26,684 nucleotides of DNA from Fimbriimonadia bacterium (GCA_041483895.1 JBGPGO010000030.1:1-26684), one strand, 5' to 3'; shown: positions 4,969 to 26,684, numbered from the stretch's first letter. The notes: generated by a model not told the origin, from the letters alone. Numbers and translations are program-made.

Positions 4969-4971
4969 GGG

Positions 4972-9638: not shown

Positions 9639-9641
9639 AGG

Positions 9642-9647: not shown

Positions 9648-9653
9648 TCACTG

Positions 9654-11027: not shown

Positions 11028-11044
11028 CCGTACATAGTCATTGT

Positions 11045-11677
11045 ATGCATCGTTTGCTGCTCCTGTTTGGCTTACCTTTGTGCGCGATAGCGGTCGTCGC
11101 GGGATGCAGTTGCGCCTCGAAAGCGGGCAACCAACCTCCGAAGCCGGGATTCAAACTGGAAAAGACCGCCGGATTTTGGCCCCGCCCTTCCAAGGCTGAA
11201 GCATTCGATGTGGAATTGGGCTCCGGGACGCTGCCGTTCGCATCGGAGCAGCAGCGGTTGACCGAGCGCGGCAAACCGGTCATTCTCCTTCGCCTTTCGG
11301 CGCAGAACGAGTTTCTGAATGAGAAGTTCGTGGTGAACGACGCCGGAATCTACTTCGTCGGAACCGATATCGACCAGTTTTCCCCGCCGATCCCACTGGT
11401 GGAGTACGGCAATCGGGTTGGGGGGAAGTGGACCTGGCACGGCTTTAATGAGACGAAGGGCGTGCCGCCAATACCGGCGACGGCGGAGATTTCGAGCGAG
11501 GAGGAGCTGCTCCGGCTCCCTTCGGGCACGTATTCCACAGTCAAGGTTGCTGTGGCCATCAGCTTGGACAGCCGCACAGGCGCAGCGGATGAGATGGCGT
11601 TCTGGTTTAGCCCCGGCAGCGGCATTGTCCGGGCAAAGCTGCCGGGATATACGCGCACGATCCGCCCGGCCAAGTAG
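11045..11677 (+). CDS. Putative lipoprotein, DUF3108-like/TapB-like fold (paralog 3)
   Basis: Signal peptide with lipobox-like VAGC. Motifs GIYFVG...FSPPIPLV...GGKWTWHG, LRLPSGTYSTVKV and FWFSPGSGIVR. Confidence 0.6.
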   Translation: MHRLLLLFGLPLCAIAVVAGCSCASKAGNQPPKPGFKLEKTAGFWPRPSKAEAFDVELGSGTLPFASEQQRLTERGKPVILLRLSAQNEFLNEKFVVNDAGIYFVGTDIDQFSPPIPLVEYGNRVGGKWTWHGFNETKGVPPIPATAEISSEEELLRLPSGTYSTVKVAVAISLDSRTGAADEMAFWFSPGSGIVRAKLPGYTRTIRPAK

Positions 11678-11838
11678 ATTGGGTTCGGGAAGGGTCGATT
11701 CGGGCGCCAACTTCTCGTCAAATGGTATTGAGGAGAGGAATCCAGCTAAAATGCCGCGAGGCGGACCGACAAATCGCCGGCATTTCCCGTCTAATAGGCA
11801 GAAGATCCGTCGAAGTGGCTGGTAAAACAACCGGGTTC

Positions 11839-11889
11839 TTGACCCTTACGAGTGTTTTGGGCATTTTGTTAGCGAAAGAACTGACAAAA
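11839..11889 (+). promoter_or_regulatory. Candidate sigma70-type promoter of the pilin cluster with an overlapping inverted repeat
   Basis: TTGACC (11839-11844), 17-nt spacer, CATTTT (11862-11867). TTTTGTTAG-N8-CTGACAAAA (11864-11889) is an imperfect palindrome. Lies in a 315-bp, relatively AT-rich intergenic gap. Confidence 0.4.
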
Positions 11890-11992
11890 AATTGGTTAGG
11901 AAGGGAACAGGCCGCGGGAAGCAGCAGTCTAAAAAACGGCAGCTAGCTTAGTTTCCGGCCCCGGATCGGTATAAAAACGAGGTCCAAAAGAA

Positions 11993-12781
11993 ATGAAGAA
12001 ACGCGCGTTTACATTAATCGAGCTCTTGACGGTCATCGCGATCATCGCGATATTGGCCGCGATCATCTTTCCGGTTTTTAATGCGGCGCGGCGCAATGCA
12101 AAGCGTACGGAGAGCGAATCGAACCTAAAGGCGATCCACACCGCGCTGAAGCTGTACCACGCCGATTACAATGCCTATCCGGAGACGCTGGGCGGGTATG
12201 TCGAGCGGTACAACAACGTTGTTCAGCGATTCGATGAGCTAAAAAGCGCACCTCTCTATAAGAATCGGATTGAGTCGGTGGGCGCTTTCCACAGTGCGCT
12301 CAACCTGAACACGAACTTGACAGCCACAACGGGCGCGCAATATCCGCAACGCTCGCAGAAGATCAGCGGTCAGTACCAGATCCAAACAGGTTGGGGCGAG
12401 GGCAAGCCCGCGATGAATTCCCAAGGACAGCCAGCCGAATTCTACATCTACGACAGCTATGACGTCGGCTTGGTGAAAGATAATAAGTCCGGTGGGATGG
12501 TGCCTGAGCTCCACTACATGCTGTTCTGGACGCAACTGGGCATGGCGGGCGGTGGCAAAGATGACGATCCACGGCAGTTGGGGTATGCGCAGCCGGATGA
12601 GAGCTCCGTCGTTACTTGGGATACCTATTTTCGGCAATACCCTGCGGGTACCGGCGCCGGGAGCGACATCCCAATTCGCAACAAGGACGACATCGTTTTG
12701 TTCCTGAACGGCACGATCAAATCCGTGGATTCGGTAAACATGTCGTTACGCGGCCAGGGCCAGTACCCGACGGATCCTTAA
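11993..12781 (+). CDS. Prepilin-type N-terminal cleavage/methylation domain protein (GspG/PilE-like, 262 aa)
   Basis: MKKRA|FTLIELLTVIAIIAILAAIIFPVF..AR...ESNLKAIHTALKLYHADY..YPETL. SD-like GAGG upstream. Confidence 0.92.
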   Translation: MKKRAFTLIELLTVIAIIAILAAIIFPVFNAARRNAKRTESESNLKAIHTALKLYHADYNAYPETLGGYVERYNNVVQRFDELKSAPLYKNRIESVGAFHSALNLNTNLTATTGAQYPQRSQKISGQYQIQTGWGEGKPAMNSQGQPAEFYIYDSYDVGLVKDNKSGGMVPELHYMLFWTQLGMAGGGKDDDPRQLGYAQPDESSVVTWDTYFRQYPAGTGAGSDIPIRNKDDIVLFLNGTIKSVDSVNMSLRGQGQYPTDP

Positions 12782-12836
12782 TGAACAGTTTGGGATTGAT
12801 CATCGGTTGCAACGGGAAAAGGGGACGGATGAAGGT

Positions 12837-14732
12837 ATGAAGCATCACAATCGCAGAGGGTCTTCGTTGATCGAAGTCCTGGTTGTCATGATCGTCCTGG
12901 TGATCGGAATCTTCAGCATCATTCGCCTCTTCCCCGGCGGCTTCTTGGCGTTGCAGCGCACGGAAGAGCAGTCCATGGCATCCCAGCTCGCCAAGCTCTA
13001 CATCGAGCGGATGAAAGGCGACCCCGAAAGCATCCCGTTCGCGATCTATCCCGTTCAATACAAGGATGTCAACGGCAACCTGCTGTTGGTGGTGGACCCG
13101 GACCGGCGGCCGGACGACATGGGATATTACGAGGAGCCGAGCGGCATTATCTACCCGCAGTACACGAGCAACATCAATCATTTCCGTCGCGTAATCGGCG
13201 AGACGGTTCGAATCCCCGCCCCGCTCCCTTATCAGGGCTCGTTCCAGGGCGATGTGAAAATGTACGGCGGCCACTATCTGCTGAAATTCGCGCCGATCCT
13301 ATTTGACGACCGGGTCTTTACGGTGTACGGCTCGAATCTGCCGGGCAGCACGGTCGTGAAGGATGCGCCGACCGACGAGGTCTGTTTCCCGTTCGGCCGC
13401 GGCGGACAGAATACGTTCTATCTGGACACGAATCTGGGTGCCATTTGGCTGCCGACGATCCCATTTCGGCCGCTGCAATTTCGGATCAACCTTTCTTATT
13501 GGGTGTCGGATAATGCGGGCCTTGTGCGGCGCGACATTGTAGACTTGGTGGTGCAGACGGATGACACGCTGATTACTAGCGATCCGGGATGCTACAAAGG
13601 CATCGATCTGAAACCACTGCTCATTGCGAACGGCGAGCAGTTCCAGGGAATTATCTGGGAGAGCGTGCAGGTCGCGCGGGTCTTCAAACGTCTGAAGCTC
13701 AGCGACGATTGGACCGACGACGCATACGAGTTCAAGCTGCTCGACGACCGAGTGGGCCACGTCATCTTCAATCCCAAGGGATACGGCTACAAAGAGCGCC
13801 GGAACAGGCAGGAGATTCCGCTGCGGGCCAATTTCGACTACGACGTTCTCAATTGGCACATCCTCAACGATGAGCGGCGCGTCGGCGAAAATAGCCTACC
13901 GGCGGTGAAGCTCAGCCTCAATCGCATCAAGCATATCGGCGATTTCAATCAGGATCAGTCCAAGTACAAAGGGATTGACATGCCGTTCAATGGCGAGGAC
14001 ACAGATATGGCGATCATTGACGTCGCCACAGGCGGAACGGTGTTCAATCCAGCCAAGCCAAATCCCGCATCATACGTCGTCGATTACACGACCGGCAACG
14101 TCAAGTTCGGCGCCGAAGTGCATATCCGCACGATCAATTCCGATGGAAGCTACGGCGAATTGGTCTTTACACCGCAAGGCCGAACGATGCGATTCCTGTA
14201 CGAAGGAACGGATGATTGGGGCGTTCAGGTCCAAAAGGCTTCTCATCAATACCAGATGACCCTAGCGCTCAGCGCCGGCGGCAAGCTCGGGATCAGCACG
14301 TACTATGTTGGCCTGTCAGGCCAAACGCCGCAGGGCCTTCCGACGCGCATCTATTTCCCGCCGTGCGACATCGGGAAGACCGTGACCGTGCGGCAATACA
14401 GTTTTATCAACTCGGGCGGGAGATCCGACATCGCCTACAACGAGACGTTCCTGATCAATGCTCCCCGCGCGGGGGATGCCGTCAATCTCGGCTACGTTGA
14501 CATTCGGGAATCGCCGACCAGCGCGGGCGCGCAAGGGTTTGATTTCGCGGCGAACATCGCGCCTGTGCTCGCCGTCGAAGGCACGTCGGTCAAGGTTCGC
14601 GTCGTGTGGGCGCCGACCCACCGCGAACGGTCGGATCAGGAGCGCAAAGACAGCTATCCGAATGTACGGTTCGTTCCGGACTGGAAGAAAATCGATTTCG
14701 ACACCAACCTTACGAAAGTAACCGTGCCATAG
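12837..14732 (+). CDS. Large prepilin-type protein, PilV/GspI-like position (~631 aa)
   Basis: MKHHNRRG|SSLIEVLVVMIVLVIGIFSIIRLFPGGF is a class III signal with Glu5. Start placed at ATG 12837. Long beta-rich C-terminal region. Confidence 0.8.
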   Translation: MKHHNRRGSSLIEVLVVMIVLVIGIFSIIRLFPGGFLALQRTEEQSMASQLAKLYIERMKGDPESIPFAIYPVQYKDVNGNLLLVVDPDRRPDDMGYYEEPSGIIYPQYTSNINHFRRVIGETVRIPAPLPYQGSFQGDVKMYGGHYLLKFAPILFDDRVFTVYGSNLPGSTVVKDAPTDEVCFPFGRGGQNTFYLDTNLGAIWLPTIPFRPLQFRINLSYWVSDNAGLVRRDIVDLVVQTDDTLITSDPGCYKGIDLKPLLIANGEQFQGIIWESVQVARVFKRLKLSDDWTDDAYEFKLLDDRVGHVIFNPKGYGYKERRNRQEIPLRANFDYDVLNWHILNDERRVGENSLPAVKLSLNRIKHIGDFNQDQSKYKGIDMPFNGEDTDMAIIDVATGGTVFNPAKPNPASYVVDYTTGNVKFGAEVHIRTINSDGSYGELVFTPQGRTMRFLYEGTDDWGVQVQKASHQYQMTLALSAGGKLGISTYYVGLSGQTPQGLPTRIYFPPCDIGKTVTVRQYSFINSGGRSDIAYNETFLINAPRAGDAVNLGYVDIRESPTSAGAQGFDFAANIAPVLAVEGTSVKVRVVWAPTHRERSDQERKDSYPNVRFVPDWKKIDFDTNLTKVTVP

Positions 14733-16652
14733 ATGACGAGAATCGCGAGACAACCGCGGGCCGGATTCACGATGATCGAGATTTTGGTGGTGATGGCCAT
14801 CACCTCCATCTTGCTGCTGCTCGTCTTTGGTCCGCTCATTCAATCGTTCAATCTGACCCGCGAGGCGCAGGCGGAGGCGGTTGCGCAGGATACGGCGCGG
14901 CGCCTCATCGACGACGTCTCGAAAGAATTGGCGAACGCCACCTTCATCCGGGACAGCAGCGGCCGGTCCGCCGGGTTGGAAATCATCATGCCGGAAGAGT
15001 ATTTTGCGGTCACGCTGCCGGAGGCGCAGCGGCACATCTATCTGCCGTACGCGAAGATCGACTTCTATCCGCCGTCGCAGGGTAACCCGGGCGATCCGCA
15101 ATATAACCCGTACGTCGGCAAGCAGGACCCGACGCTGAAGAACAAGGGACCGATCGGCACGCTGAACCTGCCGCTCGCGCGCGGAATCTCGATGGTTCGA
15201 TATTTCATCGGCCTGCAGGACCCGACCCAGGAATACCGGAATACCGCCGAGCAGAAGCTGGTTCGCGCGACGTTGGGCGACAATTTATTCGTGTTGTATC
15301 GGGCCGAGGTGATCCCTGTTCTGGCGAACGGGCAGGTCAATACGGAATTCTTTGACGTGGGTCCGGACGGGCAGCCGGTGTACGACGATCCGACGTTCTT
15401 CACCGCTACGTCTACCGATACGGCGGCCAAGCGCCAGCGAATCCAGAGTTGGCGCAACGCTTCGACTACCGTATCGATCGTGGATCGCATGGACCTGATC
15501 AACGTCGTGCGGGACCTCAAGAGCAAAGACGTGATTTTCGATCCGAACGGCAGGCCGCAGGTGAGCTCGCTTCTCTCCTTCCAGCCGCAGCGGGTGGAAG
15601 ATGAGCCGATGTCGCAGGACACGACGACGTCCCTGGGCGAAGAATTTCCGAACAAAGTCCCTTCCGGATACAACAGCCTCAATGGGGGTTGGACGGATTC
15701 TTACGGCGTCACGATCTATCGCGATCCGCTCGGAGGAACAGACAAGTATTGGACGGATGAGGAGTTCATCAACAACAAGTGGCATAGAATCGTATGGCAC
15801 CAGTTCCAGAGTATCGGGGGTAATCCCGAGTCGGAGCGGGTGTTCGACATTACGAAGTATATGGACAGCGTCCAGGCAGGAACGCCGGACCTGAAGACCG
15901 CCACCTATCAGCCGTTGAATTCCCAGCCTCTGATGTTCACCGTCGATCAGGAGACCGGCAAGCTTTCGATGACCTTCGATCGGCAGAGCTGGACGATTAC
16001 CAATCCCTGGCTGCCGAGCACCGGCCTTGCTCTGACCTGGCAATCGGATTTGAACCCGGATCCAACGACGGTAAACGGGGCATACAACTATCAGTATCGG
16101 AACCATCCGCAGTGGGATCGCCGCATCCAGCGATTTATCCGATTGCGCGATGATATGGATTCGCCTCTGGCGCTTTGGAAAAACGCCACCATCGTGCCGG
16201 GGACCGAGGTCGTGATCGGACCGGACCAGCGGCCGGGTGTGCACTATGGAGCTCCGATCTGCTTCCGGCGAGTGCCATCTCTGTCGACGGAGATGGGCCC
16301 GAACCAATATCGGATCAACTACACGGCGTTGCCGTTCGATCCGGTGGCTCTGAAGAGTCAGGGATTCGATCCCAACGATCCGGAAGTCCTGAAGTACATC
16401 ATGCCCCGGTTCGAGCCCGGATATATCCAGTTTTATTCCGACCCGTACTATCCGATGCCGGAGGGCACGAGGAACATCCAGGTGTCTTATCGCTTCCAAC
16501 TCAATACGTCGGCGGATATAGCGACAGTTGACTATTCGACGCGGGAAGTGCTGCTGATCAACATGGCGGTGCGAAAATTCACGCAGGGTGCGTCAACCGC
16601 GCACATGACCACTCTGACCAACAAAGTAAAGGTCCGCAATTTCCTCCGGTAG
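14733..16652 (+). CDS. Large prepilin-type protein, PilW/GspJ-like position (639 aa)
   Basis: MTRIARQPRAG|FTMIEILVVMAITSILLLLVFGPL...AQDTARRLIDDVSKELANA. The C-terminal TLTNKVKVRN resembles the PilW/GspJ terminal strand. ATG abuts the upstream TAG. Confidence 0.85.
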   Translation: MTRIARQPRAGFTMIEILVVMAITSILLLLVFGPLIQSFNLTREAQAEAVAQDTARRLIDDVSKELANATFIRDSSGRSAGLEIIMPEEYFAVTLPEAQRHIYLPYAKIDFYPPSQGNPGDPQYNPYVGKQDPTLKNKGPIGTLNLPLARGISMVRYFIGLQDPTQEYRNTAEQKLVRATLGDNLFVLYRAEVIPVLANGQVNTEFFDVGPDGQPVYDDPTFFTATSTDTAAKRQRIQSWRNASTTVSIVDRMDLINVVRDLKSKDVIFDPNGRPQVSSLLSFQPQRVEDEPMSQDTTTSLGEEFPNKVPSGYNSLNGGWTDSYGVTIYRDPLGGTDKYWTDEEFINNKWHRIVWHQFQSIGGNPESERVFDITKYMDSVQAGTPDLKTATYQPLNSQPLMFTVDQETGKLSMTFDRQSWTITNPWLPSTGLALTWQSDLNPDPTTVNGAYNYQYRNHPQWDRRIQRFIRLRDDMDSPLALWKNATIVPGTEVVIGPDQRPGVHYGAPICFRRVPSLSTEMGPNQYRINYTALPFDPVALKSQGFDPNDPEVLKYIMPRFEPGYIQFYSDPYYPMPEGTRNIQVSYRFQLNTSADIATVDYSTREVLLINMAVRKFTQGASTAHMTTLTNKVKVRNFLR

Positions 16653-16671
16653 GGCCTTGGAGAACAATCGT

Positions 16672-19446
16672 ATGACGAAAACAGGGAACCACAATCGAGC
16701 CGGTCAAACGCTGGTCATCGCGCTGATGATCACGTTCATCATGCTGTTCCTCGGATTGATCTTTGTTGGAATCATCGCTCGGAATCTGTTCTTCACGCAG
16801 CGGGGCACGGCGGCCATGACGGCGGACAACTTCGCCGACAGCGGCATACGATTTTCTCACGATCAGTTGATGTCTACGCCGCAGGGGGCGGATTGGCGTC
16901 CCTCGCCGACCAACCTGCCGCCAACCCAAAACCGAGACCCGGACTATGCCTGGCTCCGCGCGCCGGACCCGAACATCGCGGGAGATCTTGGAGGTCCACA
17001 GAAGTCGCCCACCACCCCCGGCGCCGGATCGTTCACCCGCATCAACTTCGATCAGGGCCGGGCGCTCATCCGTGTCAGCTACAATCCGGACCCTGTCGAT
17101 CCGCTCTCGAAGTACATAATGATCGATTCGGTCGGCCGCGTGGGAGTGATTCGAGACAACGACCCGACGGTCTTTACCAGCGGGACCTCGACGACGTTTC
17201 GCGAGAAGATTGCTTACGCGGTCATCGGGATCACAGACTACACCCGCTTCGATACAGACAAGGATCACAAGGGCCAGCCGATCGATCTGGGCGTCAATAC
17301 GAAATTTGGCGCAATGTTTGCCGACGCGTCGGTGGAAGTGCCCCTGATCTTTGGGGACCCAGTGGCTATGGTCGCTTGGGATCCGAACAATCCGGGCATT
17401 CCGTACGGAGCGCCATGCCGATTCAACGGCGAGCTTCGTCTGTTTGGCGAGACGTTGTTCTATCTCAATCCCGAAATGAACGACAAGTTGGAGGTGGTCG
17501 GCGGAATCACATACGCTCCGAATTCCGTCACAAATACGACAACCTCCTTGCTGTACAGCAAGGCTTCGGCTCAGCTTCAGGCCGGCGCAACATTGTTTGC
17601 CAGCACGTCCACAAGCTTCCTGACTTACAGCGGACTGGTGCGGGATGGCAGACGGTATCAGGATGCGCAAGGGTACATGCGGCAGCTCGAGTTCCTTGAA
17701 CCGCCGGTTATCGATCAGGTGGATCAGGCGACGGGGCGGGAGCGCTACCGAGCGGCGACCGTTTCCAGCGGGGCGTGGAAAAAGGGATACGACGGGAACT
17801 ATTTCAATACGGGCCGCATCGGATATGGCCAGGGCATCTATGTCGATAACTTCGCCGATGTGCAAAGAGACGTGACGGATTTTGCCGGAGGGGCGAGCCT
17901 GCGAAGCGAATGGCTCAATCCGAACGGCGGCAGCCCGAACTGGCAGGGCCCCTACTATGTGCCGCCGGGATGCTTTATCGAACTGATCGATACGGGAAAT
18001 GTCGACACACGCGGGTTCCGAATCGTGCGCAATGCGAGAGACGACAGCCAGATTTGGAAAACCTTGGACAACCAGCCGACGCCGAATCACTCGATGCGGT
18101 TTTATGTATTCAAAGACGTGAACAGTCCCACCGGCCTCATGATCTATCCGGAGATCGCGCAGAAGAAGGACGCCTATCCTTTTAATGGAGTCATCTACTG
18201 CGAAGGGAATGCCCGGGTTCGCGGCATCATCCCTGCCACTCTGCAATTTACAATCGTGAGCAACTCGTCCATTTATGTCGAGGGGAGCATCACAAAAGGC
18301 ATTGCGGCGAACGAAAACGGAGTGCCCAGCTCGGCTCTCTCTCTGCTGGCACACGACTACATCTGTCTCAATACCACCCAGTTTGTCGGGCCGGCGATCG
18401 AAAGCCCGCTCAACTTTGAGCCCGACGCTCAAGACGTGATTGCGCCGTATCATATTAATATCACTCCGGGCAAGCCGTTCAACGCACGTTTCAGCTTCGG
18501 CGTCGATCCTGCGACATATACTGGCAGCGACGACGGCAAGAATCCGCGCATCTATCTGCGGCACGCGTCGGAGGCCGGCGGCTATGCGTTCTTCAACATG
18601 CTCGTAAACTACGGTTTCAACCCCGCCAATTCGGAGTACCTTTTCAACAGCGGCCTGCCGAATTATGCGGGATCGTTCTATCCGGGCCAGACTTGGATTC
18701 CGACGTACGGATTGGCGAACCAACAGAACCAGGTATTCCCGCGATACGAGCATCGGTCCTTTGCGCTGTGGCCCACGAACGGTCAGATCGGCATGTACAA
18801 CCTGCTCGCCAACGGGAGCGACAACTATCTGACGTTCCAGACCGATCCGAAGATGGCGACCCATACCGGCAACCGCGCCTATCTGCTCAGCGCCCTCGCG
18901 GTTCAGCCGATGGATGTGAAGATTGAGGCTCTCATGTACGCGCAGGAAGGCTCATTCTTCGTCATTCCCGGACCTTGGTTCAATTCCAACCCGAACGATC
19001 GGCGAGAGGTGTGGGATCGAAACAAGACCCTCGGCCTCGATCCGGCGCAGCGCCGGCTCGATGACTTCGGCGCATATCCGGAGTATCCGTTCTATGCGGA
19101 ACCTTTGGATATCCTGATCCAGATTCGCGGCGCGGTTTCGGAGAACTTTCCGCCGCCACTGGCCGATCAGGAAGAGTGGATTCGCCACTGGGGATGGATT
19201 CCAAAGGAATACGGACGATCGGGGATGCACATCCCAGATCAGCATATAAAGTCGCCCAAGTTCGACAACGCCAAGTATGTGCCGAATTTGCTGATGACTT
19301 ACGACCCGGTTTTCGTTACCGCGAGGGCTGGAGGCAGATACACAACGCCCGCTGTGCGGACCGATCGATACGGCCGCATGCTGCCCGCGACACCGATGTT
19401 GCCCGTCGGTCCCAAGCTTCTCTACAATGGCGAGGTCAGACCATGA
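16672..19446 (+). CDS. Large PilX/GspK-like minor pilin (~924 aa)
   Basis: MTKTGNHNRAG|QTLVIALMITFIMLFLGLIFVGII...ADNFADSGIRF has a prepilin-type signal without Glu5, plus the A...AxxG(I/L) PilX N-terminal pattern and IDSVGRVG. Alternative TTG start at 16657. Confidence 0.78.
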   Translation: MTKTGNHNRAGQTLVIALMITFIMLFLGLIFVGIIARNLFFTQRGTAAMTADNFADSGIRFSHDQLMSTPQGADWRPSPTNLPPTQNRDPDYAWLRAPDPNIAGDLGGPQKSPTTPGAGSFTRINFDQGRALIRVSYNPDPVDPLSKYIMIDSVGRVGVIRDNDPTVFTSGTSTTFREKIAYAVIGITDYTRFDTDKDHKGQPIDLGVNTKFGAMFADASVEVPLIFGDPVAMVAWDPNNPGIPYGAPCRFNGELRLFGETLFYLNPEMNDKLEVVGGITYAPNSVTNTTTSLLYSKASAQLQAGATLFASTSTSFLTYSGLVRDGRRYQDAQGYMRQLEFLEPPVIDQVDQATGRERYRAATVSSGAWKKGYDGNYFNTGRIGYGQGIYVDNFADVQRDVTDFAGGASLRSEWLNPNGGSPNWQGPYYVPPGCFIELIDTGNVDTRGFRIVRNARDDSQIWKTLDNQPTPNHSMRFYVFKDVNSPTGLMIYPEIAQKKDAYPFNGVIYCEGNARVRGIIPATLQFTIVSNSSIYVEGSITKGIAANENGVPSSALSLLAHDYICLNTTQFVGPAIESPLNFEPDAQDVIAPYHINITPGKPFNARFSFGVDPATYTGSDDGKNPRIYLRHASEAGGYAFFNMLVNYGFNPANSEYLFNSGLPNYAGSFYPGQTWIPTYGLANQQNQVFPRYEHRSFALWPTNGQIGMYNLLANGSDNYLTFQTDPKMATHTGNRAYLLSALAVQPMDVKIEALMYAQEGSFFVIPGPWFNSNPNDRREVWDRNKTLGLDPAQRRLDDFGAYPEYPFYAEPLDILIQIRGAVSENFPPPLADQEEWIRHWGWIPKEYGRSGMHIPDQHIKSPKFDNAKYVPNLLMTYDPVFVTARAGGRYTTPAVRTDRYGRMLPATPMLPVGPKLLYNGEVRP

Positions 19447-22400
19447 GATTCGTTCGTATTGTTTTCCTTTCGGCGGGGTTGCTGGCTATTGCCGGCCAGT
19501 CCATTGCCCAGGCTACTACGTACGGTCAGTCCCGCAATCCGATCAATTGCGGAATTCTGCTTGTGCCTTCTACCAGCAATGTGAATTCCCCCGGCGGCAC
19601 AGACGCCGACCCCTACGTCTTTTACAATATGGGGAAGCGGACGGACCTTTTGCCGGGAGGCTGGGACTTCCTCAATCCGTTTGCGCCGACTGTGACCACG
19701 CAGAGGATTTATGATCGATGGAAGGCGATCATGAACACCGCTCCGTACCAGATCGGCGACAAGATTCAGCGCAGCATGGCGCCGTACTGGGAGGTCAACC
19801 TCGCCGACCTTACCGACAAGCAGCTTGCGATGTATGACATCCTGCTCATCCATGCGCCGGGACCAATCCGATTCAATCCCGAAGATCGGGAGCGGCTGCG
19901 AAGATTTGTGGACGGCGGTGGCATTCTTTGGTATGACAAAGCGACGAACCAATCGGTCGATTCCAGTTCCGGATTTCCGCTTGCGTTTAGCGTTACCTCG
20001 GCCGGGTCCAACCAGCAGGTGGTCAATCCGACCCATCCGCTGCTGAACTATCCGCACAAATTGACGTTTGCTGAGGCGACGAGCCTAGGCATCCATCCCG
20101 GGGGCCACGCGATTTTGCCCTACACGGCAGGAAACCTCGCGCAGAAGGTGGATTACGATCGGCTGACCCCGGTTGTCGTAAACAGCGCCGGCGGGGTTGT
20201 GATGGAGGCTGATTACGGCACGGGCCATTTTGTGGTCACGGCATGCAACATCTCTTCCGCGATCAACGAACCCACGGGAGGAATCACGGGGCGCTACGGC
20301 TCCAACAGCGGACCGTTTGCCGGGAGCAACTTCCTCAATATTCCGACCGCGAGCCTCAAGTTCGCCTACAACCTGATGGGGTTGGTCGGAACCCATCGAA
20401 TGCAGGCGAAGGGATCGCGGCGTCTTAATGCCACGTTTGAGGATCTCGGCGCGCCGCTCCTGACTCGCTGGTCCGCTCCGGTTTCATCACAAACCTCGAG
20501 CAACTTTCATGGCAGGCTTTATAAGACTCCTGTCGTTTTCAAGGGGCTTCTGATCGTCGCGGATGATACGACTGTCTATGCTTACGATCTCACTCCCGGC
20601 CAAGACCTCGACGGCGACGGAAATCCGGACGATGGCTTTCAGGATTATTTTGGCGGAACGACCTACGACCTGGTTTGGAAGAAAACGATTCCCGGGGCCG
20701 GTAGACTTTCAACACCTCTTGCCATCGAAGTGCCGGTCACACTTCCCAATTTTGAAAGGGGCATCGCGCCACCGAACAATCAGATTTGGGTCATGGACGA
20801 CCACGACAATGTGTGGATTCTCAATGCGTATCCGTCGAACAACGGCAAGCTGTCCGACAGCCAGGGTTCGAACGATGTATTTGAGATCCAGCGTCCAGAT
20901 TTCGTAACCGAACTGGCATTGCCGGCGAATTCTCAACCGAATCCTTTGGCCTATTCTGACGGCATGGTGTTCGCGACCGGTCGACAGGCGCCGCAATCGG
21001 GCGATGGCGGAGTTTGTTGGGTGATGTCTCCCAAAGTGGCGCGCAACGTGCAGACTGGCACCGAATCACCGTTTTACGCTCGTGGCGGCACGCAGAAGTT
21101 CGTCGTCCGTCCTTTCTCCACAGGGCCAACGGTGGGAATGGTCCCGCAAAACATCGATGGCGGCGGATCGGATCAGATGGTTTACGCGGGATATGAGCCG
21201 CGGGCCGGCATCGGCCAAGGCAACCCGTGTGGCTTTGCTGCGTTGTGGTTCCGATCGCGCGGAGAGAAGCTGCGGTTCGAGCGCTACGATCCCAACACGC
21301 AGACGAGCTATTTCAAGTCGCAAGCATCGGGTCGAAACCTGAAAGTGTATGAGTACACGGGTACAGAAGCAGATTTCTATGAGCTAAATCCAAGATTTTA
21401 CATTTACGATCAGTATGGAAATCCGGTCAACAACACAACCGGCAGCTCGTCCGCATTCGCGGCGGGTCAGTTCGAATTCAAGGGCAACCTGTCGATTCTA
21501 AATATCTATTGCGACTACACAATCAACTGGGCGGATGGGGCCCAAACTCCGTCGGGCAATATGGACGCCATCGCCCGAACCATCATCAGTTTCCCGGATT
21601 CATCTTCCAACCCAAAGCAGGAGGTCATCAAGTCGATGGCCTTGGCGCCGAATGGCAACCTGTTCATCATTACGAGCGAATTGCAAATCACGAATGATCC
21701 ATATTCGGGCGGCGGTTCGCTGTTTTGCTTCAAAGAACAACTGAATAATACGAAGCTGCTGTATCGATGGCAGCTGCATAACGGCTACACGCAGGCCATG
21801 GGGAGCCAGACCTTCACGATTCCGCCGACGCTGATCGACAACGACGATCTTGTAAAGAAGACCTACCTGGCGAGTTTCCTCGACAAGCCGATGACGAAGG
21901 TGCACTTCCATGGCACTCCGACGATTCATGACAACATTTGTTACATCGTCGTATCCGCAAGGAAGCCTTTCCCCTTCGGCGGGGATCTTCCGGTAACCGC
22001 GGTTCTCGCGTTCGACGCCGATCCGGAACCGGCGGAAATTCGGCTCGGCGGCCCGATCGTGGGCAATGTCAGCGAAGTTGAAATCAGCCAGCCTGATCCC
22101 GCGAGCAGTCTCGACCGGACGAAGCCGACGGCGTATCAAAAGCTGACCTTCCAAGCCGGGATGAACAACCTGGACGTAGACGCGGAACAGGGCATTATCC
22201 GTATAACCAATTTCCTGTCGACGCAGAACCCGAAAGCTGCCCGCGCAATCAGCGTGAGCCAGCCCGTCGTGGTTAAGTTGCCTGGCCAACCGCAGATTCA
22301 GATCGATCCCAACGTCACGGGTACGCACTGGTCGCCGCTCAAGTGGTTCATGACCTTCAATGGATTTACGAATGAATCGCCGTGCATGGTCACGGGAGGC

Positions 22401-24065
22401 ACCCTCTATCTGGCGGGCGGATGGGCCATCGAGAGCTTCGTCTGCCGGCCGATGGCGATCCCGCCTCAATACCGCGCCGTGGTTATCGCGATGGACTCGC
22501 AAATTCCGACTAATGACGAATTCTTGATCAACGATCCGCTGGTGCCCAACAACACGCACAGCAATCGACAGTTGATGACGATAAAGTATGTGTCCGCAAC
22601 GCAAATCAAATGGAACACGCATACGCGTTGGCCTTCGGGAAAGGGCATTAGCAATCTCGAAGACTATTGCACTCGAGTGCGGCAAGCGGCAGTAAGCAAC
22701 CGCCAGATGGCGCTCGGCGTTGTCGGCGGCGACGGCACGGTGATTGCGTGGGACGATCGGACCACGATGGTGTTTGAACGGGCCCTCACCGCGGTGGCGG
22801 ACCAAGGACGCATCGTGGAATTCGACTCCGAGGGCTTCGTGACATGGAATTCGGAGAACACCTACGCCGGAACGCTGGCTTCGAACCAGATCTTTATGAA
22901 AGTGGTCAAGCTGACCGATCCGACGAAGGTGTACAAGCTGGGGTCGAATGAGTATTTGATTGCCGACACCGGCGCGAATCGCATCGTTCGAATCGAACGG
23001 ACCGGATTCGAGACTCGAAGCATCGAGAGCTTCAATTACGACGTCGGGTTGCTCAAGAACGACGTGCTGCGTGGCTTCAATCCGGGTGATCCGCTCACGT
23101 TGCGACAGCCGCGCGACGTGCAGACCTGGACGGACTATGTGCCGGCGGCGGTCAACCCGTTCCAATATGCGGAAGATCCGGACCTAAAACCGCAACCTTG
23201 GGAATATTGGGTCCACTATCTGATTGCGGACACGGGCAATGCGCGCATCATCGAGGTGGTGGATCGGCACGTCGCCGCGTTTGACAACAAGACGGGCAGC
23301 TTCGTCGTGGGTGGCATCATAAACGCGAAGACGATTGGCGATCTGGTCTATCACAGCCCTCTCAACGCAGTTGGTCGAAAGTTCCGCTATCAAGGCGTCA
23401 GCCGGGTAATCACGGCGCCGGACGCCCAAGGTTTGAATACATGGTTCAATGTCGCGATCATCGGCAACTGGGAGGCCACGAGGACGACAACCGGCGATGA
23501 TCCCTTTAATAACGATGTGACGTTGCAGGCATATAGCGGCGCCGGCGCGATCATCATCGAGCGATTCGAGAAGGGACTCACATTGGCCAACAAGATCAAG
23601 GTCGTGAATCGGGTGACGCTGCCCGGCGTCGGCGTCCGAGAGATCGTGAACCCGCAATCGGTCCAGGCCTTCCCCTATGTCTACGGGGGTCAATTGCAGC
23701 TAGGCATTTTGATTGCGGATCAGAACGGTGTGGCGTTCCTTGTTAGCGAAGCCACGGATCTGAAGAGTTGGAAAGTGATCTGGCAGTACACGGACGCGGA
23801 CAACCGATATCTGCGAGGCATCCCGCTGAACGCAACCAGCGCGCGTAGGCTTGGGAACGGAAATATCTTGCTGACCAATTCGTTTGTGGGTCAATCGGTC
23901 ATCGGGCAGGATACGGCTGGGGAGGTCTTGGAGATCCGATTCAGCGATTACAATCCCAGTAAGCCTTACGACGGATTCGACAATATACGAGGGAGCGTTC
24001 GGGCGGAATTGCCGCCAATCGTCGGTACTCGCCCGCTTCGACTGCCGTTATTTGCGGACCGTTGA
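19443..24065 (+). CDS. Very large secreted protein (1540 aa): DUF4159/GATase-like N-terminal domain plus beta-propeller/NHL-like repeats; candidate PilY1-analog adhesin
   Basis: ATG 19443 overlaps the upstream stop (ATGA). Sec signal MRFVRIVFLSAGLLAIAGQSIA|Q. Motifs YDILLIHAPG..FNPEDRERLRRFVDGGGILWYD, DLDGDGNPDDG, YLIADTGANRIV and YLIADTGNARII. Confidence 0.72.
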   Translation: MRFVRIVFLSAGLLAIAGQSIAQATTYGQSRNPINCGILLVPSTSNVNSPGGTDADPYVFYNMGKRTDLLPGGWDFLNPFAPTVTTQRIYDRWKAIMNTAPYQIGDKIQRSMAPYWEVNLADLTDKQLAMYDILLIHAPGPIRFNPEDRERLRRFVDGGGILWYDKATNQSVDSSSGFPLAFSVTSAGSNQQVVNPTHPLLNYPHKLTFAEATSLGIHPGGHAILPYTAGNLAQKVDYDRLTPVVVNSAGGVVMEADYGTGHFVVTACNISSAINEPTGGITGRYGSNSGPFAGSNFLNIPTASLKFAYNLMGLVGTHRMQAKGSRRLNATFEDLGAPLLTRWSAPVSSQTSSNFHGRLYKTPVVFKGLLIVADDTTVYAYDLTPGQDLDGDGNPDDGFQDYFGGTTYDLVWKKTIPGAGRLSTPLAIEVPVTLPNFERGIAPPNNQIWVMDDHDNVWILNAYPSNNGKLSDSQGSNDVFEIQRPDFVTELALPANSQPNPLAYSDGMVFATGRQAPQSGDGGVCWVMSPKVARNVQTGTESPFYARGGTQKFVVRPFSTGPTVGMVPQNIDGGGSDQMVYAGYEPRAGIGQGNPCGFAALWFRSRGEKLRFERYDPNTQTSYFKSQASGRNLKVYEYTGTEADFYELNPRFYIYDQYGNPVNNTTGSSSAFAAGQFEFKGNLSILNIYCDYTINWADGAQTPSGNMDAIARTIISFPDSSSNPKQEVIKSMALAPNGNLFIITSELQITNDPYSGGGSLFCFKEQLNNTKLLYRWQLHNGYTQAMGSQTFTIPPTLIDNDDLVKKTYLASFLDKPMTKVHFHGTPTIHDNICYIVVSARKPFPFGGDLPVTAVLAFDADPEPAEIRLGGPIVGNVSEVEISQPDPASSLDRTKPTAYQKLTFQAGMNNLDVDAEQGIIRITNFLSTQNPKAARAISVSQPVVVKLPGQPQIQIDPNVTGTHWSPLKWFMTFNGFTNESPCMVTGGTLYLAGGWAIESFVCRPMAIPPQYRAVVIAMDSQIPTNDEFLINDPLVPNNTHSNRQLMTIKYVSATQIKWNTHTRWPSGKGISNLEDYCTRVRQAAVSNRQMALGVVGGDGTVIAWDDRTTMVFERALTAVADQGRIVEFDSEGFVTWNSENTYAGTLASNQIFMKVVKLTDPTKVYKLGSNEYLIADTGANRIVRIERTGFETRSIESFNYDVGLLKNDVLRGFNPGDPLTLRQPRDVQTWTDYVPAAVNPFQYAEDPDLKPQPWEYWVHYLIADTGNARIIEVVDRHVAAFDNKTGSFVVGGIINAKTIGDLVYHSPLNAVGRKFRYQGVSRVITAPDAQGLNTWFNVAIIGNWEATRTTTGDDPFNNDVTLQAYSGAGAIIIERFEKGLTLANKIKVVNRVTLPGVGVREIVNPQSVQAFPYVYGGQLQLGILIADQNGVAFLVSEATDLKSWKVIWQYTDADNRYLRGIPLNATSARRLGNGNILLTNSFVGQSVIGQDTAGEVLEIRFSDYNPSKPYDGFDNIRGSVRAELPPIVGTRPLRLPLFADR

Positions 24066-24131
24066 TGGGGAACATCGGCGCGACGGGCATCGTCATAGGA
24101 AAGGCTATCTAACGATCGTGGGTGACATGGA

Positions 24132-26684
24132 ATGAATATGGGCCGAGTTTTTACACTTCTGGCTACGGCGCTGGGTGTCGTTGCCTCCAGTTTCGCGCAA
24201 GATATTTGGCCGGTGCCTCGCGGCGACCAACAGCGACCGGGCATTACCATCAACAGCACCAATGGGACTTGGAACAAAGCCGATGGTCCCGAAACCGGCC
24301 GATTGACATGGTATTGGCCGCTCAACAAAGACATCCTGCCGGCGATAACGGTCGACAATATCAGCGACGATTTTTCAATGACCGGGTCGTGGACCTTACC
24401 GCCTGATAATTTAAGATCATCCGGCTATTACGGCCTCGATTATTGGTACACCACCTGCGTCGCAGCCACGGATGTAAGCGATCCGTCGCAAGGCGCCACG
24501 AAGTCGGCCACCTGGGTGCTCCGGCCCACGCACTCAGAGGTCGAAAACTATGAGGTGTTCGTGCAGTTCCCGAGCGGTGGAACGCACACATCGGTCAGCA
24601 CTATCATTCCAAACGCTTTGAACGCCATCTATCGGGTGACATGGACGTCCGGCGGGGTCCCACAATCCGCAATCTACAAGATCCAGCACACGCAAGGCGG
24701 TCAGCTCGTCCGACTCGGCTCCGGCCTTCTGTTCCCGGCATCCAATGGAACACCCATCACGGTAACGCTATTCAACACCGTGGCGCTGTTGCCGGATGGT
24801 TCCGGTCCGGAAGAGGATCCCACGAAGGTGATCGTGACGGCGGATGCGGCTTTCTTGACGCCACCGCCGGCGGTTTCATCGTCATCACCGATCACCATCA
24901 ATGACGCGCAATATGGGAAGCGGTTTTATTATACGCGGGACATCACGTCTACCAATCCGGCGGGTGCGACCGGAACCGCCGGCACCTCCGGCCACCTGAC
25001 CTGCATCGCCCCGCCAGCCAACATCGACGCAACCGCGTTCATGCTGTGGGACTGGACTCCGTCGCAGCTCTCCAACGCGAACACAATCGTCGATGAGGGA
25101 CCGAATTTCAAACACGACGCCGGATTCACGGAGTACTTGGATGTCGGGAGAGACTTCTACGGCGCTCGCAGTTTCCGCGCTCCGGTTACGAGCAGTCCGC
25201 TGACAACGGATTGGAGCAACGCGCGGTGGGAGCCCAAACTGGAGTCGTCCGGCAATTTGGATATCTATGTCTGGTTCCCTTCGTCTGTCACGGGCAACAT
25301 CAATGCGCGGAAAGTTACCTATTACGTGCATTACTACGAAGCCGGTCTGAAAACGGACACGATCATTGTCGACCAGACCAATGGCGGCCGGTGGGCGCGG
25401 ATCGGGAATCGCTCCTATCCCAACGATCCGGACCAAGGCCAGGTATCGCTGGAGGTTGTGAACTTTTCTGACGATCCGGCGGATGCCGGCAGCTTTGTTC
25501 AAGCGGATGCGGCCATGTTCGTCGGCGACTACGACAGCAGCATAACGGTGAGCCCGGCATTTTATCCGGGCATCCGGGTGAAGCTCAAGAACGGCACGAA
25601 CGCGACGAGAGATGTCATCTTCGTGGCCGATCAGGGCGGCCGCGTGTACATGGTGGACGCGAAGGGCGTGCAGAACAGCGGCGATAACTGGCGGACGTTC
25701 GCGTATTGGGCCTACCCGTCGATTCCCAATGTCAACAATGCGAATTGGAAAGATCCGAACGACAAAGCGAATCTCGATCAGGGAATGACGCCTCCGGGCG
25801 CATTTTTGGGAACCACGGTATGCGTTGCAAGTGTGGGCGGAAAAGATGTGGTCTATATCGGCAACACAAATGGCCGAATCTATGCCATCGACTGCACGGG
25901 CCGAGGCGACTATGACGATACGCAAAACCTGGCGGGAACCGCGCAGCGGTTCTGGACTTATCCGGATACCTATCCGGACGTGACGGCGGACAAGCAGATC
26001 ACGTACAACGCGGTCGTCACAGGCGTCCCCGCGTATTACAACAACACGGTTTATTTCCCCACCCTCGAGGGACGCGTTTACGCTCTTTCGGCAGACGGCG
26101 ATGGGGACAAGACCACGACCCCGCGGTGGATTTGGCCGGGCCGAAACCTCGACGGTCTTGCGCCGGAGAACCCGGTTGGTGCAATCCGAGGGCCTGTGAC
26201 TGTCGCAACCGCTTCTGGGGCTCCTATGGTGGTCGTAGGTACCGAACTCTATCAGAAACCGGGCAGTCTCGTCTTTTCCGGATATGTGACGGCGCTCAAT
26301 GCCACCGGCACGGGCAATCATCGCACGGGCGAGATTTGGAGTTGGCCGAAAACCACTGATCCGCCCATTCAAGGTGTATCCTCCAGCGGGCCCGCCTATG
26401 TCCCACAGGTAGATGTGAACAGCGACGGTAATCTGGTCGATCTAATTTCCTTCGGAACCATTGGCGGTACCGTCTATGGCCTCAACGCAAAGACCGGGGC
26501 CAAGGTATGGGCATCACCGGCGTTGGGCAGCACCCTGACAGCGGCGCCCTCTTGGGGAGTCATCAAGTCCAGACCGGGCGACACCCTGCAAGGCCTGCAA
26601 GAATCCTTCCTGTTCCCGACTGCCGGAGGCGAGCTTCTCGGCGTCAGGGCACGGACCTATAGCGCGACCAAGGTGGCGGGGCAG
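24132..26684 (+). CDS. Large secreted PQQ-like beta-propeller protein with two inserted golvesin/Xly-CBD-like beta-sandwich domains, 3' truncated by window (>851 aa)
   Basis: Missing from the ORF track because it runs off the edge. Manual translation from ATG 24132 is open to the end: MNMGRVFTLLATALGVVASSFA|QDIWPVPRGDQQRPG, ITVDN...NYEVFVQFP...VTADAAFL, TIVDE...LDIYVWFP...VDQTNGGRWARIG...VQADAAMF, and propeller blades VIFVADQGGRVYMVD, VVYIGNTNGRIYAID, TVYFPTLEGRVYALS, FGTIGGTVYGLNAKTGAKVW. Confidence 0.78.
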   Translation, partial: MNMGRVFTLLATALGVVASSFAQDIWPVPRGDQQRPGITINSTNGTWNKADGPETGRLTWYWPLNKDILPAITVDNISDDFSMTGSWTLPPDNLRSSGYYGLDYWYTTCVAATDVSDPSQGATKSATWVLRPTHSEVENYEVFVQFPSGGTHTSVSTIIPNALNAIYRVTWTSGGVPQSAIYKIQHTQGGQLVRLGSGLLFPASNGTPITVTLFNTVALLPDGSGPEEDPTKVIVTADAAFLTPPPAVSSSSPITINDAQYGKRFYYTRDITSTNPAGATGTAGTSGHLTCIAPPANIDATAFMLWDWTPSQLSNANTIVDEGPNFKHDAGFTEYLDVGRDFYGARSFRAPVTSSPLTTDWSNARWEPKLESSGNLDIYVWFPSSVTGNINARKVTYYVHYYEAGLKTDTIIVDQTNGGRWARIGNRSYPNDPDQGQVSLEVVNFSDDPADAGSFVQADAAMFVGDYDSSITVSPAFYPGIRVKLKNGTNATRDVIFVADQGGRVYMVDAKGVQNSGDNWRTFAYWAYPSIPNVNNANWKDPNDKANLDQGMTPPGAFLGTTVCVASVGGKDVVYIGNTNGRIYAIDCTGRGDYDDTQNLAGTAQRFWTYPDTYPDVTADKQITYNAVVTGVPAYYNNTVYFPTLEGRVYALSADGDGDKTTTPRWIWPGRNLDGLAPENPVGAIRGPVTVATASGAPMVVVGTELYQKPGSLVFSGYVTALNATGTGNHRTGEIWSWPKTTDPPIQGVSSSGPAYVPQVDVNSDGNLVDLISFGTIGGTVYGLNAKTGAKVWASPALGSTLTAAPSWGVIKSRPGDTLQGLQESFLFPTAGGELLGVRARTYSATKVAGQ

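What the first reader, a model, noticed from the sequence alone, without database searches (positions are those of the whole stretch)
11993..26684. Giant minor-pilin operon: candidate enlarged type IV pilus/pseudopilus tip system with two large propeller adhesins
Seen: six co-oriented, closely spaced genes (TAG/ATG abutment at 14732/14733, ATGA overlap at 19443). Four have class III prepilin N-termini (262, ~631, 639, ~924 aa) and two are Sec-signal beta-propeller proteins (1540 and >851 aa). Established: in type IV filaments the tip complex is encoded as pilV-pilW-pilX-pilY1 (or gspI-J-K), where the PilX/GspK subunit lacks Glu5 and the pilins are usually well under 400 aa. Inference: this cluster keeps the V-W-X-Y1 order and signal signatures, but each subunit carries several hundred extra residues and there are at least two adhesin-like partners. 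This suggests a lineage-specific, multi-domain surface appendage tip for adhesion, polymer binding or cell contact that I do not recognise as characterised.
Basis: partly seen in the sequence, partly recalled or inferred. Interest (0 to 1): 0.82.

Follow-up and report, generated by a model that had tools for sequence, protein, structure and literature searches.

The report
Giant self-capping Armatimonadota pilus tip
Six adjacent genes, found together in most sampled lineages of the little-studied phylum Armatimonadota and joined to type IV pilus machine genes, encode oversized pilus-tip proteins that are predicted to cap the pilus without the usual PilY1 adhesin and that likely carry two huge secreted propeller proteins for sticking to surfaces; it is an undescribed, enlarged version of a known design.

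Summary
The six genes are real as described. The sixth is cut by the contig end; it continues on contig C20 (about 2108 aa in all), followed by pilM, a secretin and aroK-aroB. In relatives pilB-pilT-pilC-pilD lie directly upstream, so this is the tip cassette of the core type IVa pilus locus of Armatimonadota (PilX-like gene in 241 of 251 genomes).

AlphaFold models: the 924-aa protein is a ComZ-type pilin (GspK-like head, beta-solenoid, carbohydrate-binding-module-like jelly roll) whose own conserved C-terminus is predicted to supply the strand that PilY1 donates elsewhere. The 639-aa protein has a GspJ/PilW head with two inserted regions.

How they attach is open; a small beta-module shared by four of the proteins is a lead.

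No paper describing the cassette was found. This scan reported it at least eight times before on other genomes. Verdict: new variant of a known kind.

The parts
11993..12781 (+). p1: 262-aa pilin with Glu5, in the FimU/PilH slot; likely a divergent, locus-bound member of the DUF1559-like prepilin family that has about 41 scattered members in this genome
   Evidence: PF07963 E 6e-7, PF07596 E 4e-4 under cut-off. A profile lacking the first 61 residues finds 8 other ORFs at E<1 (7e-4 to 0.96); all 8 are such prepilins
12837..14732 (+). V: 631-aa PilV/GspI-slot pilin with Glu5 and about four copies of a small beta-module; not folded on its own
   Evidence: TIGR02523 PilV E 2e-8, under cut-off, residues 7-64 only; modules by hhalign; 99 homologues 498-748 aa
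14733..16652 (+). W: 639-aa PilW/GspJ-type pilin; head made of the N-terminal part plus the last two strands
   Evidence: AF2 pLDDT 90.8, pTM 0.83; VIA-align TTHA1219 Z 9.0 (rmsd 3.3, 130 aligned), XcpW 7.9, EpsJ 6.4, GspJ 6.1, all spanning about residues 35-628
15585..16544 (+). Inserted region of W (mature 274-593) with small beta-domains weakly like decorating domains of phage distal-tail/baseplate and contractile-injection baseplate proteins
   Evidence: Z 4.8, 4.5 and 4.2 (9gtp, 8gtc, 8rk3): weak, a lead only
16672..19446 (+). X: 924-aa PilX/GspK-type cap pilin without Glu5; ComZ-like beta-solenoid inserted before the last strand
   Evidence: AF2 pLDDT 92.4, pTM 0.92; ComZ 6qvi Z 14.5, rmsd 4.0, 259 aligned; ice-binding solenoids Z 10.8-11.5 and GspK Z 7.8, rmsd 3.3, 99 aligned; Atlas neighbours with DUF4900/PilX_N
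18388..18909 (+). Jelly-roll domain of X (mature 562-735) resembling carbohydrate-binding modules CBM6/35/36
   Evidence: Many CBM rows at Z 6.5-7.5, about 115 residues aligned; present in all 144 homologues aligned but variable, 29% mean identity. The fold does not show the ligand
19417..19434 (+). Final beta-strand of X (mature 905-910), predicted to complete the pilin sheet in cis
   Evidence: Strand in the model; head alignments run to residue 913 vs GspK residue 315 and to 911 vs S. sanguinis PilA residue 134; P897 in 144 of 145, P900 and G909 in 143 of 145
19443..24065 (+). Y: 1540-aa secreted protein; DUF4159-like N-terminal domain, PQQ-type propeller with a conserved DxDxDG motif, one shared beta-module, C-terminal NHL-type propeller likely closed by its own last residues
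   Evidence: DUF4159 in 16, NHL in 10, PQQ_2 in 8 of 26 homologues, no PilY1 family; PDB profile hits; DxDxDG in 21 of 26; C-terminal 9-mer is the best non-training match among 1507 windows to the NHL first-strand profile
24132..26684 (+). Z, first 851 of about 2108 aa: secreted protein; two Golvesin_C stretches, PQQ-type propeller, then (on contig C20) an unclassified region ending in a likely propeller with two shared beta-modules
   Evidence: Golvesin_C E 6e-13, 2 stretches, in 8 of 14 homologues; continuation; C-terminal part has no Pfam, PDB-sequence or Atlas hit but 680 relatives at 50% clustering

Best explanation
These six genes sit in the core type IV pilus locus of Armatimonadota and likely encode its pilus-starting tip: the three giant pilins would form a PilV-PilW-PilX-type trimer, the PilX-like one is predicted to finish its own beta-sheet so that no PilY1 is needed, and the two secreted propeller proteins likely ride on this tip as accessory adhesins. 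Shown: gene order, prepilin signatures, linkage to pilB/pilT/pilC/pilD and pilM/secretin/aroK, phylum-wide spread, lack of a PilY1 match in Y and Z, and families with the pilins but no detectable Y or Z. Predicted: GspJ-like head of W; GspK-like head, ComZ-like solenoid, CBM-like jelly roll and in-cis last strand of X. Inferred from known systems: PilD processes p1, V, W and X; V and W pair and recognise the completed X sheet; p1 adapts the trimer to the filament; PilB extends the pilus and PilT retracts it through the secretin. Inferred and weakest (about even odds): Y and Z are exported by Sec, dock on the inserted domains of V, W or X, perhaps through the small beta-module shared by V, W, Y and Z, and bind polysaccharide or cell surfaces.
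For: Locus: own genome has Z followed by PilM (TIGR01175 over cut-off), an STN-only gene, a secretin, AroK and AroB. In G031 the order is pilB, pilT (TIGR01420 over cut-off), pilC, pilD, then the cassette and pilM to aroK. Among 31 loci from 29 genomes chosen across families: V 29, W 29 by blast (30 with G105's ORF), X 31, Y 25, Z 21, pilD within the 7-8 kb upstream 21, pilM downstream 11. Spread: X 41 of 41 in the order and 241 of 251 in the phylum; Y N-domain 186 of 251; Z C-domain 166 of 251. Folds. In-cis strand: head alignments end at X's last residues and GspK's last residue, and the last 33 residues are among the best conserved, 53% mean identity. PMC13533445 (sections read) shows that systems without PilY1 carry this strand on the PilK homologue; PMC13759059 (passages) proposes the same capping role for cyanobacterial solenoid PilX. 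Y and Z dispensable: neither found in f8 (0 of 21), f13 (0 of 4) or f28 (0 of 7), where X is found in 19, 3 and 7; in single-contig G157, X is followed directly by pilM. Adhesion: CBM-like domain in X, Golvesin_C in Z; Fimbriimonas is non-motile and fimbriate and its pili were proposed to serve attachment (PMC4072686, passages). Shared module: 24 of 36 pairs among 9 motif-bearing segments align at E<0.01, against 0 of 42 pairs involving the 4 other segments (segments were chosen around the motif, so this is not an unbiased test).
Against: No expression, proteomic or microscopy data were obtained. V was not folded and rests on position, Glu5 and a sub-cut-off PilV hit. The summed mass of V, W, X, Y and Z is about 640 kDa (plus an estimate for Z), hard to fit through a secretin pore of about 60 A (PMC6561018, passage) unless the tip is elongated or Y and Z join outside. 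Z lies away from the locus in G044 and G167, and the whole cassette lies apart from pilD and pilM in G020. Non-detection of Y and Z may be divergence: Z's C-domain was also missed in Y-positive families (f17 0 of 2, f19 0 of 4, f27 0 of 8), although G187 has a 2069-aa ORF in Z's place. The CBM-like Z-scores are under 8 and jelly rolls are common. The pilN/O/P-like genes have no Pfam hit and are named by position. The genome has at least two more type IV filament loci, so which machine uses which pilin is inferred from linkage.
Confidence: 0.65

Rival explanations
1. V-W-X form the tip as above, but Y and Z are not tip passengers: they are periplasmic or outer-surface parts of the machine (assembly scaffold, secretin-associated cap), or cargo that the pilus pushes out in the manner of type II secretion to build a surface coat.
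For: Their size is hard to reconcile with the secretin pore. Their propellers are BamB/PQQ- and NHL-like, not PilY1-like. Both termini of Y, and probably of Z, look occupied in closing their own folds. Z directly precedes pilM in many loci and can move away from the pilins.
Against: No lipobox or membrane anchor was seen. Y stays directly behind X in 25 of 31 loci, overlapping its stop codon here. Y and Z share a module with V and W. Z carries Golvesin_C stretches, recalled as carbohydrate-binding-like.
Confidence: 0.22
2. The cassette builds a competence pilus tip: X binds DNA as ComZ does, and the enlargement serves DNA uptake rather than adhesion.
For: ComZ is X's best structural match and binds DNA (PMC6561018, abstract and passages). 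The genome has ComEC and PilT. The compact cyanobacterial solenoid PilX serves competence (PMC13759059).
Against: X is net acidic (77 K+R against 89 D+E). It is of the expanded, domain-grafted type that PMC13759059 links to adhesion and polysaccharide tracks. ComEC rang in 10 of 14 control genomes, so it discriminates little. Uptake and adhesion are not exclusive.
Confidence: 0.12
3. Y (or Z) is an unrecognisable PilY1/MshQ analogue that donates its C-terminal strand to X in trans.
For: Y sits directly behind the pilX-like gene, and its C-terminus is fixed in length, ending 0-3 residues after a conserved Arg in 25 of 26 homologues. MshQ is a precedent for a non-PilY1 donor (PMC13533445).
Against: X's own strand is predicted in that slot. 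Y's C-terminus matches an NHL first strand that its first blade lacks. Z's tail varies from 2 to 12 residues after its last invariant Pro. Families without detectable Y or Z keep X with the same C-terminal motif.
Confidence: 0.07

Closest known systems
Thermus thermophilus ComZ with PilA1-3 (PDB 6qvi; PMC6561018)
   Same: GspK-like pilin without Glu5, with a triangular beta-solenoid between the penultimate and last strands (Z 14.5). W's best match, TTHA1219, is also a Thermus minor pilin (that it lies in the comZ locus is recalled, not found in the paper).
   Different: X is 913 residues mature against about 518 in the ComZ crystal chain and adds a CBM-like jelly roll. V and W are about 625 residues each. 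Two giant secreted partners follow.
Cyanobacterial solenoid PilX, expanded PilX-EPS subfamily (PMC13759059)
   Same: Solenoid PilX proposed to cap the pilus in place of PilY1, with lineage-specific domains grafted on the solenoid; a second, smaller minor-pilin set exists in the same genome.
   Different: In the passages read, PilV and PilW carry a long coil or one extra domain, and the word propeller does not occur in the main text. No sequence comparison was run.
FimU-PilV-PilW-PilX-PilY1 / PilH-I-J-K-PilC tip complex of type IVa pili (PMC13533445)
   Same: Gene order, Glu5 pattern, GspJ- and GspK-like heads, large secreted propeller protein(s) in the fifth slot, PilB/T/C/D/M/Q machine.
   Different: No PilY1 propeller match; last strand predicted in cis; two partners instead of one; pilins several times larger.
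Modular pilins (S. sanguinis PilB/PilC, ETEC CofB with secreted CofJ; bioRxiv 10.1101/2021.01.27.428410)
   Same: Pilins with grafted ligand-binding modules are widespread (more than 1,200 proteins, 264 architectures); CofB is an adapter for a secreted adhesin.
   Different: Here three consecutive core pilins are all enlarged, and in W and X the modules are inserted inside the pilin fold rather than appended.
Caldicellulosiruptor tapirins (bioRxiv 10.1101/359786, listing only)
   Same: Cellulose-binding proteins encoded next to a type IV pilus locus; a C. kronotskyensis adhesin domain (4wa0) aligns to X's solenoid at Z 7.3 (that 4wa0 is a tapirin is recalled).
   Different: Tapirins are described as proteins near the locus, not as core pilins; the score is middling.

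Membership tests
Type IVa pilus core minor pilins (PilH/FimU-PilV-PilW-PilX) | Class III signal peptides; Glu5 in all but the PilX/GspK subunit | tested here: met
Type IVa pilus core minor pilins (PilH/FimU-PilV-PilW-PilX) | Conserved V-W-X gene order | tested here: met
   29 of 31 loci; the exceptions are a contig end (G168a) and a solitary second X (G082a). Four loci have an extra p1-type gene between V and W
Type IVa pilus core minor pilins (PilH/FimU-PilV-PilW-PilX) | GspJ-like head in W and GspK-like head in X | tested here: met
   Predicted models: XcpW Z 7.9, EpsJ 6.4, GspJ 6.1; GspK Z 7.8. Scores are middling but are the top or only pilin-class rows
Type IVa pilus core minor pilins (PilH/FimU-PilV-PilW-PilX) | GspI/PilV-like head in V | tested here: inconclusive
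   TIGR02523 E 2e-8, 34.6 bits against cut-off 52.2, helix only; V was not folded alone
Type IVa pilus core minor pilins (PilH/FimU-PilV-PilW-PilX) | Linked to PilB, PilT, PilC, PilD, PilM and a secretin | tested here: met
   PilT and PilM over curated cut-offs; PilB best hit just under; PilC, PilD, secretin by family hits. PilN/O/P by position only
Type IVa pilus core minor pilins (PilH/FimU-PilV-PilW-PilX) | V-W-X heterotrimer at the pilus tip | not testable with these tools
   The three mature chains total 2164 residues, over the 1000-residue limit
PilY1/PilC tip adhesins | C-terminal PilY1 propeller (PF05567 / IPR008707) | tested here: not met
   No hit at E 0.01 in 26 Y and 14 Z homologues; no PilY1 chain among the listed PDB profile hits (best 60 of 72 shown; 34). 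Sequence-level test only; Y and Z were not folded
PilY1/PilC tip adhesins | Free C-terminal strand that completes the PilX sheet in trans | tested here: inconclusive
   Slot predicted filled in cis; Y's tail matches an NHL first strand; no X-Y or X-Z model was run
PilY1/PilC tip adhesins | Large Sec-exported non-pilin encoded directly after pilX | tested here: met
   Y follows X in 25 of 31 loci; signal peptide by inspection
ComZ-type solenoid PilX | Beta-solenoid between the penultimate and last strands of a GspK-like head | tested here: met
ComZ-type solenoid PilX | Sequence membership (DUF4900, PilX_N) | tested here: inconclusive
   No such Pfam hit in the window protein or 25 homologues; Atlas feature neighbours at 0.94-0.95 carry these families in 12-58% of members
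ComZ-type solenoid PilX | DNA binding | not testable with these tools
   Only net charge was computed
DUF1559 / H-X9-DG prepilin family (for p1) | PF07596 match and C-terminal H-X9-DG-type motif | tested here: inconclusive
   PF07596 under cut-off; no H-X9-DG model among NCBIfam hits for 25 homologues; consensus has a conserved His followed by a DLVLFLxGxV-type strand; the globular profile finds only such paralogues, weakly

The most novel reading that the evidence does not exclude
Armatimonadota have a PilY1-free pilus tip of about 640 kDa in which a self-capping solenoid pilin and two module-studded pilins form a scaffold, and two giant propeller adhesins dock on it through a repeated small beta-module related to phage tail and baseplate decorating domains: a third way, besides C-terminal strand donation and N-terminal peptide hooks, of mounting adhesins on a type IV pilus. 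The lead pilin would also tie the large, unexplained DUF1559-like prepilin expansions to this retractile machine.
Probability: 0.22. Interest if true: 0.75.

Novelty: new variant of a known kind. Interest (0 to 1): 0.5.

Why it matters
It appears to be the near-universal pilus of a whole, barely studied phylum whose cultured member Fimbriimonas is visibly fimbriate, so it gives a concrete target for how these soil, sludge and hot-spring bacteria attach. It also tests two current ideas about type IV filaments: that assembly is licensed by one terminal beta-strand supplied in cis or in trans, and that tip size is limited by the secretin pore. A tip that supplies the strand itself yet keeps two very large secreted partners would need another docking route. 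The core design is known, so the surprise is moderate.

Tried and rejected
Complex prediction of V (26-623) against the head of W in two pieces gave no verdict: score 0.00 in two runs, controls not folded, job unlike the tool's calibration. It is not used as evidence either way.

No RNA holder was listed for window 11993-21900, so no reads were laid.

The PF05567 search of the own genome found nothing, but no control genome rang either, so it shows nothing.

Promoter- and terminator-like sites over 11500-26684 were at chance level: 8 against 7.8, and 13 against 15.1.

Profile searches of PDB sequences gave nothing for X or Z's C-domain, nothing meaningful for V, only N-terminal helix hits for W, and weak IFT52 and beta-galactosidase hits (E 0.12-0.28) for Y's N-domain. 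Foldseek gave no hit at E<=0.001 for W. The Atlas gave no usable hit for Z's last 1290 residues. The search for related loci returned a single locus.

The idea that V and W are paralogous beyond the helix was not supported by whole-profile comparison, though short modules align.

The idea that W's inserts go with Y and Z is not clean: W is short in two Y-less genomes (G145, 307 aa; G082, 348 aa) but long in three others (G113, G157, G105).

The alternative starts at 12807, 16657 and 19176 and the long opposite-strand ORFs were set aside because homologue alignments and signal positions favour 12837, 16672 and 19443.

Distribution outside Armatimonadota was not tested directly. All organism-named homologues seen were Armatimonadota or unclassified bacteria (5 of 10 Z clusters looked up carried a name, all Armatimonadota).
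Full report
1. Observation. All six ORFs, their lengths, the abutment at 14732/14733 and the overlap at 19443 are as described. I call them p1, V, W, X, Y and Z. Position +5 is Glu in 25 of 25 p1, 93 of 99 V (6 gaps) and 105 of 105 W homologues, and I/V/M/L in 141 of 145 X homologues. The window is all of contig C30. Z continues on the reverse strand of C20 through an 82-nt overlap with 10 mismatches, probably a strain bubble, giving about 2108 aa. GC content is that of the genome, 54-59% against about 58%.

2. Context. On C20, Z is followed by PilM (TIGR01175 over cut-off), three genes in the pilN/O/P positions with no Pfam hit, a small STN-only gene, a secretin, AroK and AroB. In this genome pilB-pilT-pilC lie on C21 and pilD on C3. 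In G031 they lie directly upstream of p1, and the same holds for G034 and G037 by reading of N-termini (their rows were cut). G001, G002 and G006 have pilD upstream and pilM to aroK downstream; G020 has the six genes alone. Named homologues are Armatimonadota, the closest from Fimbriimonadia.

3. Spread. X matched 41 of 41 genomes of the order (the tally includes the own genome and G036, which is unpublished) and 241 of 251 of the phylum. Many matches in distant families are weak; five such loci were confirmed with a profile at E 8e-100 to 3e-35, plus a second copy in G082. I fetched 31 loci from 29 genomes, chosen for family spread and long contigs, not at random. Labels by blast: p1 29, V 29, W 29, X 31, Y 25, Z 21, pilD 21, pilM 11, secretin 10 (only 7-8 kb upstream was read). 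Lengths in the alignments: V 498-748, W 487-770, X 741-1209, Y 1233-1872, Z 2098-2822; shorter W (307, 348) and longer X (1278, 1393) and Z (3590) occur. Y's N-domain was found in 186 of 251 genomes and Z's C-domain in 166 of 251; neither was found in f8 (0 of 21), f13 (0 of 4) or f28 (0 of 7). In G157 X is followed directly by pilM. Divergence can hide homologues: Z was also missed in some Y-positive families.

4. X. The AlphaFold2 model from 80 sequences has pLDDT 92.4 and pTM 0.92. The best match is Thermus ComZ: Foldseek E 1e-4, VIA Z 14.5, rmsd 4.0, 259 residues. Ice-binding solenoids follow at Z 10.8-11.5 and GspK at Z 7.8. Residues 562-735 form a jelly roll like CBM6/35/36 at Z about 7, a common fold that does not show a ligand. 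The GspK alignment runs from residue 29 to 913 against 29 to 315, and the S. sanguinis PilA alignment to 911. So the last strand, 905-910, is predicted to belong to the head; I infer this from alignment ranges and could not inspect coordinates. The C-terminal 33 residues are among the best conserved. PMC13533445 (abstract, Results part 1 and section 10 read) shows that this strand licenses assembly and comes from PilY1/PilC in trans or from the PilK homologue in cis. PMC13759059 (passages) describes cyanobacterial PilX with a solenoid at the same position and proposes that it caps the pilus without PilY1. PMC6561018 (abstract and passages) describes ComZ.

5. W and V. W's model from 105 sequences has pLDDT 90.8 and pTM 0.83. 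The top five structural matches are TTHA1219, XcpW, S. sanguinis PilB, EpsJ and GspJ, Z 9.0 to 6.1, each spanning about residues 35-628. The inserted region 274-593 gives only weak matches, Z 4.8 or less, mostly to phage tail, baseplate and contractile-injection proteins. V was not folded; its helix matches TIGR02523 PilV under cut-off. A short motif of the form Y.vDy..G.i.F recurs in V (about four times), W (two), Y (one) and Z (two). Profile comparison links these segments, best probabilities 85-92%, 24 of 36 pairs at E<0.01 against 0 of 42 pairs with other segments. The segments were picked around the motif, so this is a lead. One Y homologue has a marginal DUF2460 hit, E 0.0099.

6. Y and Z. 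Y has a DUF4159-like domain, a PQQ-type propeller and an NHL-type propeller; Z has two Golvesin_C stretches, a PQQ-type propeller and about 1200 unclassified residues. No member of either alignment matches a PilY1 family. Y's last residues are the best non-training match among 1507 windows to a profile of its own NHL first strands (4.4 against 1.6 for the next), and its first blade lacks such a strand, which suggests ordinary propeller closure. Z's end reads as a last propeller blade by pattern (my reading). Z's C-domain has 680 relatives in the 50%-clustered library.

7. p1. It is normal-sized. The genome has about 41 similar prepilins among 50 motif hits. A profile of p1 without its first 61 residues finds 8 other ORFs at E<1, all of them such prepilins, but weakly. 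Whether p1 is the FimU-type adapter or a major pilin is open; its slot suggests the adapter.

8. Mechanism. Shown: anatomy, linkage, spread. Predicted: folds of W and X and the in-cis strand. Inferred from known systems: processing by PilD, a V-W-X initiation trimer capped by X, extension and retraction through the secretin. Inferred with about even odds: Y and Z dock on the tip as adhesins for polysaccharide or cell surfaces. PMC4072686 (passages) reports fimbriae, no motility, 79 PulG-like genes and pilB/C/D/M/Q/T in Fimbriimonas, and proposes attachment. Against: about 640 kDa has to pass or bypass a pore of about 60 A, and Z can leave the locus. Rivals are Y and Z as periplasmic parts or cargo (0.22), a competence tip (0.12) and strand donation by Y (0.07).

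9. Novelty. Seven searches were run. The Armatimonadota-directed ones (18, 99, 127) listed 14, 7 and 1 papers; none by title or abstract start describes this cassette, and only PMC4072686 was opened. Supplements were not read: Tables S23 and S24 of PMC4072686 may list these genes, and most subscription papers are not in the library. Modular pilins as such are widespread (10.1101/2021.01.27.428410, passages). 10.1101/359786 was seen as a listing only. Eight earlier notes of this scan describe the same cassette in other genomes; I read them after forming my reading and count them as no support. Verdict: real, conserved, undescribed as far as searched, a new variant of a known kind; interest 0.5.

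Noticed in passing
window 26603-26684 and the end of contig C20 (L095, high end): The two contigs overlap by 82 nt with 10 mismatches inside gene Z, so the assembly probably broke at strain-level variation in this gene.
   Followed up: partly
L095:8760-9443 (-): A small separate gene with an STN/secretin-N0 domain sits just before the secretin; in G002 it has a long Gly-rich tail. It recurs in relatives, and two paralogues lie on C13 and C3. It may be a detached periplasmic secretin domain.
   Followed up: partly
L085:10610-13438 (G145): In this Y/Z-less genome two smaller signal-peptide proteins (497 and 440 aa, the first with a PD40 propeller hit) fill the slot after X, as if the slot were kept for secreted propellers of any origin.
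   Followed up: partly
L061-L064 (G168); L081 (G082); L083, L085, L091, L094: G168 has two copies of the cassette; G082 has a second solitary X; four loci have an extra p1-type pilin between V and W.
   Followed up: partly
L098:2852-4903 and 9661-14971 (own contig C5); L097:3583-10641 (own contig C9): Two more type IV filament loci. C5 has normal-sized minor pilins (129, 213, 345 aa; the last with DUF7305), a secretin, an ATPase and a platform protein. C9 has PilM, a secretin and an AAA_22 ATPase.
   Followed up: partly
window 8535-11677 (+): Four co-oriented genes for exported or membrane proteins just upstream of the cassette; 10398 is DUF3108-like and 9654 and 11045 look similar by eye. None was labelled in the 31 related loci.
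   Followed up: partly
window 1013-8531: Ordinary neighbours: FAD-linked oxidase (1013-2137, -), DUF2961 protein (2211-4199, -), RNase_H_2 protein (4186-4968), ABC ATPase with ABC_export permease (4972-7396), class V aminotransferase (7371-8531).
   Followed up: no
own contig C6:13219-14134 (-): Two adjacent pilins of about 103 mature residues, candidates for a conventional major pilin.
   Followed up: no
own contig C17:38357-39172 (-); C11, C13, C17: ComEC is present, and there are several extra PilT- and PilB-like ATPases.
   Followed up: no
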